The translations under genes and the position numbers were made by a program. Of a DNA stretch of 64,000 nt, positions 26,658 through 29,136 are shown piece by piece. The notes below the pieces were generated by a model, which was given only the letters and a program-made list of their open reading frames with translations, had not been told where the DNA came from and ran no database searches. Position 1 is the first letter of the stretch. Each line of letters starts with the position of its first letter. Source of the stretch: a virus (lineage: Duplodnaviria; Caudoviricetes); the IMG/VR virus record IMGVR_UViG_3300010163_000001, positions 96,001 through 160,000 of that record; one strand, written 5' to 3'.

Positions 26658-27167
26658 CTAATACTTTCTGCATTCATCTGACATCAATTCCTTTTTTGTT
26701 TCCTGCTTCCAGCGTTTCCTTATATTTTCCAAGTCCTTTTCCGTTGCATTATATTCCTGCCCTGGAATATGCCTGAAATCGTCTAAGGCGTCCCCTAAAA
26801 AAGAAACAGGAATAAATTCTTCGCTTTCCCCTCCATATACTCCGCTTATATCGTATGGGATATCTTTATAAAGGTAGATGATATGCCCAAACGGTGCTGC
26901 CCAGCAGACAGTGCCCCCTGGGAAAGCATCTTCTAACATCCGTGCAAAATAGTAACAATAACCGGTTGCAAATAAACTGTAGATGGTTTCTATAGTATCA
27001 TCACTTGTCCCGCCGTTTAATTCAATATCTGAAATAAATGACAGTACTCTTGTATCCGCATCCGCGCAAAACTGCAGATGCCTGTGGATGAATTCTTTTT
27101 TCATTTTTTCTTTATCCCTTTCGTTTTCCGCTTTCTTTATATGTTTAATGTGTTCTTGTGTTATCAT
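26658..27167 (-). CDS. Hypothetical protein with a Cys/His/Asp arrangement (papain/transglutaminase-like?), directly downstream of the periodic array
   Basis: GYCYYFARML...FGHIIY...PYDISG; AAAGGGGG RBS favours the start at 27167. Confidence 0.6.
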   Translation of the reverse strand: MITQEHIKHIKKAENERDKEKMKKEFIHRHLQFCADADTRVLSFISDIELNGGTSDDTIETIYSLFATGYCYYFARMLEDAFPGGTVCWAAPFGHIIYLYKDIPYDISGVYGGESEEFIPVSFLGDALDDFRHIPGQEYNATEKDLENIRKRWKQETKKELMSDECRKY

Positions 27168-27193
27168 GCCACAACCCCCTTTCAAGTTTGACA

Positions 27194-27222
27194 AACGGCA
27201 TGGGACAAGTTCCCATGCCGTT
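27194..27222 (-). terminator. 12-bp hairpin closing the periodic array
   Basis: AACGGCATGGGA-CAAGT-TCCCATGCCGTT. Confidence 0.7.
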
Positions 27223-27237
27223 CATTTTCAGCTTTCC

Positions 27238-27871
27238 TTTACTTCATAACACCCAACAAGACAAAGCTATTCCATATCTTTACTAAACAACTCAACTCAT
27301 CTCTATACCTCCACACTACATCACTTTGAAGCACAAATCCATAACCATCCATACCTAACTTCACTGCACCCAACATGTCGCAACTACTCCATAACTTTAC
27401 TATACTATTCTTTGCAAGGCTACTCCATTTCTATACAAAACTCAACATGACAGTTCAGCGCCTCAACTTAACTATACTATCATAATATTTCATAGCTTCA
27501 CATCACCTGTTGCTACCAAACGATACGGTACTTTACCATTGCAATACCTCACCCCGCAATACTCATCCATCACATCACAAAACGAATCCTTTCTCTTCCT
27601 TTACTTATCATAACAATACGTTACTCTACATTAACAGTACAACTCATCTCTATGCAGTTCTTTACTTGACTGAATTATTCCCTTACATTTCATCACGTAA
27701 TCAAACCATACCATTCCCCTACTTTACAACACAACTCGTCACATTACCATTCCCAGGCGTCACGCCGCGATACGTTTCCACTCAATTCCGATGCTTTTCG
27801 CCTCATCTCTCAACAAATCCTTTACTTCACTTCACTCCACACAACGAAACCATGCCTTTACGGTGCTTTTC
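27238..27871 (-). repeat. Pentamer-periodic non-coding array: (NNNNC)6-7 + C on the plus strand, i.e. G(GHNNN)6-7 on the minus strand; 36/31-nt units
   Basis: Manual parse, e.g. 27821-27856 TTTAC TTCAC TTCAC TCCAC ACAAC GAAAC CATGC C; nine exact 36-nt units and four 31-nt units; all three minus-strand frames are closed within 27821-27835. Confidence 0.85.
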
Positions 27872-27888
27872 TTATTTATTTTACTTAA

Positions 27889-29136
27889 TTAAAAGAGATC
27901 ATTTAACACAGAATCAATCTCATCTTGTGAGGCTTCTGTATCGGATGCTAATTTATCCTGAGAGTTATTAACTAATTCTTGTACAAGTGAAGCATCATTT
28001 GATGTATCAATTGTCTTTGTCCTCTTCAGAAATTCAGCCTGCTCTTTTACTGTGTCAATATAATACCCAATCCGATTAATCGGGTATGTCATTCCAGAAA
28101 GAATCACAACAATCTGACCATCTGTTCCTTCTGTAACGCCGTAATTTTCATATACCCCATTTTTTGGTTTATGACCAATAAAATCAAAAATTTCTTGATA
28201 ATTTCCACTTCTGGAAACTTCTGTCATATCATCTGGGCAATTGATAATTACTGCCATATGAACAGCAATTCCATCTTTTTGTATCATAACAGCAGGTCCT
28301 TTTCGGATCTCTTCAATGACACATTGCTGCATAGTCTTCTTTTCAAGAGTATTGGATGTGATATTATTCACCACATACGCTGCAAGATATCCCGGTTCCG
28401 AAATAACCGATTTCACATCATTTTCATCCATCATCTGCGAGGATGACATTCGCAAAAATTCTCCGCTGATTGCTTTAATCGTCTGAATTGCATGTTGATC
28501 CGCTTTGATAAATGCCTTATCGTTTGGCTCATCCGCAAACTGGTTCAGATCAGTTAAGCTGTATGGAATCCCAAGTTTCTGAATCTCATCCAAGCAATAT
28601 GCCGTATTGCTGAATGCAATATTGCTATCAGTATTCTTCGGAGTAATTCCATGATACATGATAATTTTCTTTGTGAACATCCTGGTCAATACTCTGCATA
28701 TTTCTGGAGAAACAGAAGGACCTGTTCCACCACCAGTTGCAGATGTTACTACAATGACATCTGCTGCCTGACATGAATTCATGAAGAACTCATTTTCTGT
28801 AAATAATTCACGTCCATTTTCCTTCCAAAGAGCGACACCTTTTCCCACATTCTTTCCTGATCCACGAGCTTCTTTTCCAACGATGAAACATGGGATCGTT
28901 CCGTCCATGATTTGATCACTCATATCTTTTACAGAAGAATTAACTGCGAATACGTCCATTCCTTCTCTGTAGCCATATGAAATAGTTTGATTACCAGCAT
29001 TTCCAACACCAATAACAAATACTCGAAGATGTACATCTTTTTCAATTTTGGTTTTAATCTTCGTTACTGGGTGTTGAACTTTTTGAGCAGCAGTTGTAAT
29101 TACTTCATGCTCTTGAATATTTTCGTTCTCTGACAT
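27889..29136 (-). CDS. Tubulin/FtsZ-family GTPase (PhuZ/TubZ-like)
   Basis: VIGVGNAGNQ, GKEARGSGKN, signature ATGGGTGP, MDENDVKSV (T7-like loop). Confidence 0.85.
   Translation of the reverse strand: MSENENIQEHEVITTAAQKVQHPVTKIKTKIEKDVHLRVFVIGVGNAGNQTISYGYREGMDVFAVNSSVKDMSDQIMDGTIPCFIVGKEARGSGKNVGKGVALWKENGRELFTENEFFMNSCQAADVIVVTSATGGGTGPSVSPEICRVLTRMFTKKIIMYHGITPKNTDSNIAFSNTAYCLDEIQKLGIPYSLTDLNQFADEPNDKAFIKADQHAIQTIKAISGEFLRMSSSQMMDENDVKSVISEPGYLAAYVVNNITSNTLEKKTMQQCVIEEIRKGPAVMIQKDGIAVHMAVIINCPDDMTEVSRSGNYQEIFDFIGHKPKNGVYENYGVTEGTDGQIVVILSGMTYPINRIGYYIDTVKEQAEFLKRTKTIDTSNDASLVQELVNNSQDKLASDTEASQDEIDSVLNDLF

What the first reader, a model, noticed from the sequence alone, without database searches (positions are those of the whole stretch)
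27238..27871. Non-coding array with strict 5-nt periodicity in 36/31-nt units: candidate non-CRISPR guide-RNA array
Seen: about 120 pentamers NNNNC with an extra base (almost always C) after every 6-7. Exact 36-nt units lie at 27238-273, 27274-309, 27355-390, 27391-426, 27427-462, 27682-717, 27718-753, 27754-789 and 27821-856; 31-nt units at 27310-340, 27569-599, 27600-630 and 27790-820. On the minus strand (co-oriented with the flanking genes) this reads G-GHNNN-GHNNN..., e.g. G GCATG GTTTC GTTGT GTGGA GTGAA GTGAA GTAAA. The units are not copies of each other: only the phase-fixed G (and mostly T/A after it) is kept, while NNN varies freely. A decayed microsatellite would not keep one base per period. 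Period 5 and mixed 31/36 lengths are incompatible with codon structure, and GTGAAGTGAAGTAAA closes all three minus frames. The array begins about 17 nt after the tubulin stop and ends at a 12-bp hairpin. Inference: an RNA read by an oligomeric protein with a 5-nt step (compare the 6-nt step of Cas7 filaments), with fixed bases as protein handles, variable bases as a gapped target code, and the GG phase shift as a unit/processing boundary. I recall reports of phage RAMP/Cas7-like proteins beside pentamer-periodic RNAs with a GGY-NN pattern but cannot verify that here; this motif differs, and no recognisable Cas7/RAMP gene is in the window.
Basis: partly seen in the sequence, partly recalled or inferred. 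Interest (0 to 1): 0.92.

Follow-up and report, generated by a model that had tools for sequence, protein, structure and literature searches.

The report
Jumbo-phage VIPR guide-RNA array
The odd 640-base tract with a fixed letter every five bases is most likely a guide-RNA array of a VIPR system, a CRISPR-like phage system first described in 2026 preprints. Its Cas7-like partner protein is encoded 93 kb away in the same 255-kb phage genome, so this is a new example of a known kind.

Summary
At window 27228-27871, 120 of 126 phase positions are C on the + strand (G on the gene-sense minus strand). There are 109 steps of 5 nt and 15 of 6 nt. The strict 36/31-nt units are only the commonest spacings.

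The complete 254.6-kb genome has six such arrays and one lone Cas7-like gene (P0001).

- Homologues of P0001 abut same-grammar arrays in 54 of 59 phage contigs found by DNA pattern alone.
- 79 of 80 bacterial loci found by protein alone carry such an array.
- The predicted P0001 fold matches Csm3/Cas7.
- The family profile aligns with the characterised SUSP1 Vipr. The two residues that read the first G are replaced, which fits the one-G repeat (G-H-N-N-N).

Differences from the type example are short abutting units with a 1-nt GG stagger, no 3' tail, and arrays placed after unrelated genes. Transcription and targets are untested.

This scan had already noted the sister arrays in this genome and VIPR-like arrays in other genomes.

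The parts
27228..27871 (-). Pentamer-phased array. On the minus strand it reads (G-H-N-N-N)n with GG phase slips. It has 126 repeats in about 17 units of mostly 6-8 repeats. It is a candidate staggered vrRNA array.
   Evidence: Parse score 90.5 against a shuffle maximum of 9, and 120 of 126 phase positions fixed. The RNA is no more structured than shuffles, z -1.25. The same grammar sits next to Vipr homologues elsewhere.
27191..27225 (-). Stable hairpin at the 3' end of the array on the minus strand. It is probably a terminator or a protective 3' end of the gene-plus-array transcript.
   Evidence: 15-pair stem, -23.7 kcal/mol, z -5.0. The simple terminator scan did not call it because the U tract is weak. 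Its function is inferred.
27889..29136 (-). Tubulin/FtsZ-family gene (415 aa) whose stop lies 17 nt upstream of the array. It is the likely source of read-through transcription. It is not itself part of the system.
   Evidence: Pfam Tubulin, E = 4.4e-8. All six arrays of the genome lie 5-44 nt after the stop of a minus-strand gene.
26658..27194 (-). Next gene downstream (YunG-like). The likely start is the ATG at 27168, preceded by a ribosome-binding site. It marks the 3' limit of the array transcript.
   Evidence: Pfam Phage_YunG-like, E = 1e-8. Sequence read.

Best explanation
**What it is.** The tract is one of six guide-RNA (vrRNA) arrays of a VIPR-type system carried by a complete 254.6-kb gut jumbo phage.

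**How it most likely works.**
- It is transcribed on the minus strand as the 3' extension of the tubulin mRNA and ends at the hairpin (inferred).
- The phage's single Vipr protein is P0001: 253 aa, a lone Cas7-like RAMP, at genome 29115-29873 on the minus strand, about 93 kb away.
- P0001 is expected to polymerise on the RNA, one protomer per pentamer. It would hold the fixed G and the following non-G base and expose the variable bases (by homology with SUSP1 Vipr).
- Each GG is the last G of one unit plus the first G of the next, shifting the phase by one base. The array is thus cut into about 17 short guides of mostly 6-8 repeats with no tail between them (sequence shows the stagger; processing is inferred).
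- The loaded filaments would bind matching double-stranded DNA of competing phages, prophages or satellites through a gapped code and silence it, as shown for type II VIPR (inferred here; no target found).
For: **The array is real.** It is strand-specific and occurs six times in the genome, always 5-44 nt after a minus-strand stop codon.

**From array to protein.**
- A DNA pattern for two 31-nt units found more than 118 IMG/VR loci.
- 59 of them carry arrays of the same grammar.
- In 54 of the 59, a ~200-aa protein sharing about 30-56% identity with P0001 lies a median of 5 nt from the array, always on the G strand.
- The five further records checked encode it elsewhere in the record.

**From protein to array.** 79 of 80 bacterial or prophage loci found by protein homology alone have a G-phased array on the gene's strand. 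Their scores are 21-130, against a shuffle maximum of 19.5.

**P0001 is a RAMP.**
- The family profile hits type VII Cas7 (E = 4.9e-6) and Csm4 (E = 4.5e-4) among PDB sequences.
- The AlphaFold model has pLDDT 79.5.
- The Foldseek top 50 matches are Cas7-type RAMP chains of class 1 CRISPR effector complexes (type III-A/III-B, IV-B, VII and Cas7-11 entries), with E down to 9e-7.

**P0001 is a Vipr homologue.**
- hhalign of the family against the SUSP1 Vipr gives probability 84%, E = 7.5e-6, over 172 columns. The SUSP1 gene (KT454805.2, 28474-29061) was confirmed by its flanking GGYNN arrays.
- The G-loops align: GVGDWR in SUSP1 against GLGQW(R/H) here.
- In SUSP1, H17 and D177 read G1; here they are S/T and Q.
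- W178, which stacks on G2, is nearly invariant in the family.
- R179, which holds Y3, is kept in at least 90% of members.
- This fits a repeat that kept G2 and Y3 and lost G1.

**The system is lone.** The genome has a single copy, no Pfam RAMP hit elsewhere and no CRISPR-like repeats.

**The arrays behave like guide libraries.**
- Phages about 95% identical in the flanks differ in one array cassette.
- Relatives share whole units in a mosaic: 834 distinct units, 50 of them seen in more than one locus.
- Only the G phase resists substitution: 4 polymorphic columns against 17-25 in the other phases.
Against: - There is no expression evidence: no sequencing run was listed.
- No target was found in the phage's own genome, in 1.7 Mb of related loci, or in three remote pattern scans.
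- The arrays are more than 20 kb from vipr. By the operational rule of 10.64898/2026.10.15.759431 they would count as 'solo'.
- There is no conserved 3' tail, pseudoknot or ribozyme between units.
- Units have 4-8 repeats, not the published 9-16.
- No vap gene was recognised next to P0001.
- P0001 has His where most relatives have the Arg that holds Y3.
- hhalign probability to SUSP1 Vipr is moderate (84%).
Confidence: 0.85

Rival explanations
1. The arrays are RAMP-bound RNA, but they act on the phage itself rather than as guides. P0001 would coat the 3' UTRs of six operons to stabilise, localise or time those mRNAs, or to buffer free Vipr.
For: All six arrays are 3' extensions of unrelated genes, not stand-alone transcription units next to vipr. 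No targets were found.
Against: Relatives keep the arrays directly beside vipr, not in UTRs. Units turn over as cassettes between near-identical phages, as guide libraries do. The characterised homologue is a DNA-targeting silencer.
Confidence: 0.06
2. The arrays are decoy or competitor guides, like the published 'solo vrRNAs'. They would redirect or soak up the Vipr protein of a rival element rather than serve the phage's own protein.
For: The arrays lie more than 20 kb from vipr, which meets the published operational definition of solo vrRNAs. Such RNAs exist in satellites and VIPR-null phages.
Against: This genome is VIPR-positive, with one intact copy. The array grammar is the one that accompanies its own protein clade.
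Confidence: 0.04
3. It is a DNA-level element: phased protein-binding or structural DNA. The mean step of 5.11-5.19 bp equals half a helical turn of about 10.3 bp.
For: The mean step computed from the parses is 5.11-5.19 nt, close to half of 10.3-10.4 bp. This was my first idea.
Against: - GG spacings range from 6 to 81 nt, so helical phase would drift by up to 4 bp.
- There is strict strand polarity, with G on the sense strand of the upstream gene in all six arrays and in 54 of 54 relatives.
- The partner is an RNA-binding RAMP.
Confidence: 0.03
4. It is a neutrally decayed pentanucleotide microsatellite or a compositional accident with no function.
For: None beyond the 5-nt period itself.
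Against: One position is kept at 95-97% while the others are near-random, P about 1e-21. TRF sees no repeat. The same grammar recurs in hundreds of unrelated phage and prophage loci beside one protein family.
Confidence: 0.01

Closest known systems
VIPR systems (Vipr protein + vrRNA), bioRxiv 10.64898/2026.04.26.720920; structures in 10.64898/2026.04.26.720927. The type II exemplar is Escherichia phage SUSP1 (KT454805.2).
   Same: - It is phage-encoded.
- The partner is a lone minimal Cas7-like RAMP with a G-loop that aligns to SUSP1 Vipr.
- The RNA is built of 5-nt repeats with fixed G/Y and variable bases on the gene's strand.
- There is no CRISPR array.
- The repertoire is hypervariable.
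   Different: - The repeat is G-H-N-N-N, with one fixed G, not GGY-NN. The G1-reading residues are replaced.
- Units have 4-8 repeats, not 9-16.
- There is no tail or pseudoknot.
- Units abut with a 1-nt GG stagger.
- In this genome the arrays are dispersed behind six unrelated genes, 23-207 kb from vipr.
- No vap gene was recognised.
The preprint's alternative vrRNA forms: YNNNG/NNNNG repeats and 'staggered vrRNA arrays' (its methods and Fig. S18 legend).
   Same: The legend describes vrRNAs that overlap by 1 nt, so that the end of one marks the start of the next. That is what the GG phase slip does here. YNNNG is the cyclic form of G-Y-N-N-N.
   Different: I could read only the legend, not the figure or the data tables. 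So I cannot say whether this protein clade is the one shown, or which of the seven types it belongs to.
Class 1 CRISPR backbones (Csm3/Cmr4/Cas7/Csf2 filaments on crRNA).
   Same: They are the best structural matches of P0001. They also use one RAMP protomer per fixed RNA step, with a thumb that flips bases.
   Different: They use a 6-nt step, repeat-spacer arrays, multi-protein effectors, and adaptation genes. None of these is present here.
TIGR-Tas (tandem interspaced guide RNA arrays, 36-nt tigRNAs).
   Same: These are phage-borne non-CRISPR guide arrays, and 36 nt is a common unit length.
   Different: TIGR arrays have an 18-nt periodicity with conserved repeat segments and a Nop-domain Tas protein (as summarised in 10.64898/2026.10.21.760802). 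Here only every fifth base is fixed and the partner is a RAMP.

Membership tests
VIPR | A stand-alone minimal RAMP (Vipr) with an RRM core, a glycine-rich loop and a thumb. | tested here: met
   P0001 has a G-loop, GLGQWHNSGKGRF. The family profile hits Cas7 and Csm4 sequences. The Foldseek top 50 matches are all Cas7-type RAMP chains of class 1 effector complexes, with E down to 9e-7.
VIPR | Homology to an experimentally characterised Vipr. | tested here: met
   hhalign of A1 against SUSP1 Vipr gives probability 84%, E = 7.5e-6, over 172 aligned columns, and the G-loop blocks align. The support is moderate. Type assignment was not possible.
VIPR | No CRISPR array and no further RAMP genes in the system. 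| tested here: met
   The genome has no CRISPR-like spaced 20-mer repeats, no Pfam RAMP hit and a single Vipr-family match. Other cas families were not searched one by one.
VIPR | RNA gene made of tandem pentanucleotide repeats with fixed G(G)Y and variable bases, on the vipr strand. | tested here: met
   The variant form is G-H-N-N-N (YNNNG), with 95-97% G at the phase position. The G strand equals the gene sense strand in all six arrays, in 54 of 54 viral relatives and in 79 of 80 genome loci.
VIPR | vrRNA genes flank the vipr gene. | tested here: not met
   In this genome the nearest array is 23 kb from vipr and the studied one about 93 kb. In relatives, 52 of 56 arrays abut the gene.
VIPR | Each vrRNA has 9-16 repeats capped by a conserved structured 3' tail (type II). 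| tested here: not met
   Units have 4-8 repeats, with a mode of 6. No conserved tail lies between units. The array RNA is no more structured than shuffles. Only one hairpin closes the whole array. The preprint allows other architectures.
VIPR | An accessory vap gene next to vipr. | tested here: inconclusive
   The neighbours of P0001 have no Pfam hit and no homologue in the related loci. Relatives often sit near Rha/antirepressor genes.
VIPR | The array is transcribed and the RNA is loaded into a Vipr filament. | not testable with these tools
   No sequencing run was listed for this DNA.
VIPR | Non-contiguous recognition of double-stranded DNA targets (NN pairs with a 1-nt skip). | tested here: inconclusive
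   No specific target was found under any rule. There is only a compositional resonance at target periods 3 and 6.
Class 1 CRISPR-Cas | A repeat-spacer array and a 6-nt backbone step. | tested here: not met
   The period is 5 nt and there are no direct repeats.

The most novel reading that the evidence does not exclude
This clade may use a pairing code of its own. With the G1 pocket lost, three bases per repeat may be exposed, and guides would be only 6-7 repeats long. Guides would be released from tail-less arrays at the GG stagger by Vipr itself or by a host nuclease. The jumbo phage would then have turned six mRNA 3' UTRs into a dispersed guide library of about 70 guides, whose supply follows the expression timing of the genes that carry them.
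Probability: 0.2. Interest if true: 0.7.

Novelty: new member of a known kind. Interest (0 to 1): 0.45.

Why it matters
VIPR is only months old as a concept, and its experiments cover type II systems of E. coli and Pseudomonas phages.

- **Extends the range.** This locus puts VIPR in a gut jumbo phage. It also shows a large clade with the minimal one-G repeat: more than 160 hits in bacterial genomes, mostly gut Clostridia and Coriobacteriia, plus many viral contigs.
- **A testable residue-to-RNA link.** The residue swaps at the positions that read G1 in SUSP1 (H17 to S/T, D177 to Q) match the RNA motif change. That links Vipr residues to the RNA code in a way an experiment can check.
- **A caveat for surveys.** The dispersed arrays show that guides need not sit near the protein gene. 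Surveys that call distant arrays 'solo', and gene finders that see G-poor pseudo-ORFs there, should take note.

Tried and rejected
**Searches that found nothing.**
- TRF, Rfam and blastn against phage records found nothing.
- A tubulin-based search for syntenic viral loci found none. The related 258-kb phage (L059) has arrays, but not in synteny.
- Sequencing runs: none was listed.
- Full-text searches for 5-nt periodicity found nothing relevant. The VIPR lead came from earlier notes of this scan, and I then checked it in the papers.

**Ideas considered and dropped.**
- A double-stranded DNA half-turn model (mean step 5.11-5.19), TRAP-like or Rho-loading RNA, and TIGR were set aside once the RAMP link appeared.

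**Target searches.**
- There were no self-targets under 16 rules.
- The apparent period-5 hits in local loci were copies of the same arrays.
- Remote scans of one GC-rich unit gave 0 hits with a 1-nt skip. With 0 skip they gave 7 hits, all without matching flanks and in GC-rich contigs, so they are chance. The full 24-nt pattern gave 0 hits in genome contigs.

**Which variable positions carry the code.**
- Pairwise counts suggested that positions 3-4 vary most.
- After collapsing related units the difference vanished, p = 0.66.
- At a 1-nt skip, exact matches exceeded letter-shuffled guides (z = 5.5). They did not exceed block-order shuffles, so the effect is compositional only.

Full report
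**Observation.** The + strand of window 27238-27871 has 32% C and 7% G. C autocorrelation peaks at lags 5, 10, 31 and 36.

A dynamic-programming parse allowing steps of 5, 6 or 4 nt places the array at 27228-27871. It has 126 phase positions, 120 of them C, with 109 steps of 5 nt, 15 of 6 nt and one of 4 nt. Its score is 90.5, against 7-9 for shuffled genomes and 6 for the opposite strand.

The four other positions of the pentamer are close to random; the best-kept one is 58% A. A decayed satellite therefore cannot explain 95% retention at one phase (P about 1e-21). TRF, Rfam and blastn against phage records find nothing.

However, 31 and 36 nt are only the commonest GG-to-GG spacings, which range from 6 to 81 nt.

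The flanks are as described:
- a tubulin-family gene ends 17 nt upstream on the minus strand;
- a stable hairpin at 27191-27225 closes the tract;
- the array RNA is no more structured than shuffles.

**The whole genome.** The window is bases 96001-160000 of a complete 254,592-bp virus record with inverted terminal repeats and 31% GC. Its RNA polymerase beta subunit is about 28% identical to those of AR9/PBS1-like jumbo phages.

The same parse finds six arrays, at genome 53212-53509, 77978-78108, 123228-123871 (this one), 211944-212449, 214948-215393 and 236732-236856. All have C on the + strand. Each begins 5-44 nt after the stop codon of a minus-strand gene. Together they hold 418 repeats in about 72 units.

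**Relatives and the partner protein.** A DNA pattern for two consecutive 31-nt units (16 specified C) retrieved more than 118 IMG/VR loci. Fifty-nine of them, at 32-59% GC, carry arrays of the same grammar: NNN(G/A)C pentamers and NNNNCC hexamers.

All-against-all BLASTP of the ORFs in those loci and in this genome gave one dominant cluster:
- 55 proteins from 54 sources, median length 207 aa;
- a median of 5 nt from the array;
- always encoded on the G strand.

That cluster includes one ORF of this genome, P0001 (253 aa, genome 29115-29873, minus strand). It is about 30-56% identical to the others. Five further records (L015, L019, L059, L094, L107), four of which lacked it inside the fetched stretch, all have it in the record.

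The reverse test used the family alignment A1 against bacterial genomes. It gave 162 relatives, mostly gut Clostridia and Coriobacteriia MAGs. Of the 80 loci kept, 79 carry a G-phased array on the gene's strand, usually starting at the stop codon.

So the array and the protein predict each other almost perfectly.

**What the protein is.** Pfam is silent. The A1 profile matches type VII Cas7 (E = 4.9e-6) and Csm4 (E = 4.5e-4) among PDB sequences, through the glycine-rich loop.

The AlphaFold model has pLDDT 79.5 and pTM 0.73. Its best 50 Foldseek matches are Cas7-type RAMP chains of class 1 CRISPR effector complexes (type III-A/III-B, IV-B, VII and Cas7-11 entries), at probability 0.98-1.00.

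The genome has a single copy, no other RAMP hit and no CRISPR-like repeats.

**Link to the literature.** Earlier notes of this scan pointed to VIPR. I read the papers.
- 10.64898/2026.04.26.720920 describes phage-encoded lone RAMPs (Vipr) with vrRNAs of 9-16 YNNGG repeats plus a 3' tail. It reports NN pairing with a 1-nt skip, silencing of rival elements and seven types. It also mentions alternative NNNGG, YNNNG and NNNNG repeats and 'staggered' arrays whose vrRNAs overlap by 1 nt.
- 10.64898/2026.04.26.720927 shows one protomer per repeat. G1 is read by H17 and D177, G2 stacks on W178, and Y3 is held by R179.

I fetched phage SUSP1 (KT454805.2). I identified its vipr gene (28474-29061, minus strand) by the GGYNN arrays and tail hairpins beside it.

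hhalign of A1 against that protein gives probability 84%, E = 7.5e-6, over 172 columns. In the aligned G-loop and first strand:

| SUSP1 residue | Role in SUSP1 | In this clade |
|---|---|---|
| H17 | reads G1 | S/T |
| D177 | reads G1 | Q |
| W178 | stacks on G2 | kept; nearly invariant |
| R179 | holds Y3 | kept in at least 90%; His in P0001 |

That matches the RNA. The fixed G would be G2, the following non-G base Y3, and the former G1 position is free. This mapping is an inference from the alignment.

**Unit structure.** Aligned on GG, 201 family units of 31 nt and 152 of 36 nt share one pattern:
- a start of G-G-(C/h)-A-n-A;
- internal G-H-N-N-N repeats, with G at position 2 in 7% or less;
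- a last repeat of G-S-A-A-N.

The first G of GG continues the phase of the previous unit and the second G starts the next. This is a 1-nt stagger, as in the preprint's Fig. S18 legend. I could not see that figure, so identity with that form is unproven.

**Guide-like evolution.**
- L002 and L006 are about 95% identical across the flanks, vipr and one array, but their second array is replaced.
- Related phages share whole units in a mosaic.
- Among 37 clusters of near-identical units, only the G phase resists change: 4 polymorphic columns against 17-25 elsewhere. The four other phases do not differ (p = 0.66).

**Targets.** None was found.
- There is no self-target under 16 rules.
- There are no cross-targets in 1.7 Mb of related loci once the array copies are discounted.
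- Three remote scans of one GC-rich unit (27749-27789) gave nothing convincing.

One weak signal remains. Real dinucleotide blocks match coding DNA more often than letter-shuffled blocks only at a 1-nt skip (z = 5.5). Block-order shuffles do equally well, so this shows only that the blocks resemble same-phase codon dinucleotides. The pairing rule of this clade stays open.

**Verdict.** The system is a member of the VIPR kind described in 2026, so it is not new in kind.

What is particular here:
- the minimal one-G repeat, with matching changes in the protein pocket;
- short tail-less staggered units;
- a jumbo-phage layout in which the vipr gene stands alone while about 70 guide units ride on the 3' ends of six unrelated operons.

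Expression, processing and targets remain to be shown.

Noticed in passing
genome 29115-29873, minus strand (L119:4115-4873), outside the window: P0001 has a roughly 30-aa Lys/Glu-rich C-terminal tail (KKKSKGRGRKKKEDKEEAEA) that most ~200-aa homologues lack. It also has His in place of the family's G-loop Arg. The gene stands alone between a promoter-like AT-rich region and a terminator hairpin.
   Followed up: partly
genome 212330-212385 and 215335-215390 (L121): Two arrays 3 kb apart share about 40 nt at their 5' ends on the G strand (TCACCATTCCATTACTTAACTCTACCATTCCACTCCTTT on the + strand). This could be a duplicated guide pair or a common leader.
   Followed up: no
window 27510-27971, + strand: A 153-aa ORF runs antisense through the array and into the tubulin gene. 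It is open only because the + strand is G-poor. Similar pseudo-ORFs formed an 85-member BLAST cluster across the related loci, which is a trap for gene callers.
   Followed up: partly
L016 6289-7026; L101 472-1462; L075 3091-4313; L023 801-1448: GC-rich viral contigs hit by the same DNA pattern carry long, low-diversity period-5 tracts with C at 40-55%. Some score on both strands. They could be canonical GGYNN VIPR arrays or plain repeats.
   Followed up: no
L007:1745-2485, L012:3979-4779 and 14 further loci: In the smaller, probably temperate relatives, the vipr-array module often lies within about 1 kb of Rha or KilAC antirepressor genes, that is, in the lysis-lysogeny control region.
   Followed up: partly
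window 27889-29136: The phage tubulin has only one weak relative among deposited phages (Bacillus phage G gp137, 23.6% identity) and no close relative in IMG/VR.
   Followed up: partly
window 27749-27789: One 8-repeat unit is far more GC-rich than the 31% GC genome (GAGTG GAAAC GTATC GCGGC GTGAC GCCTG). This is what would be expected if its variable bases copy a foreign target.
   Followed up: partly
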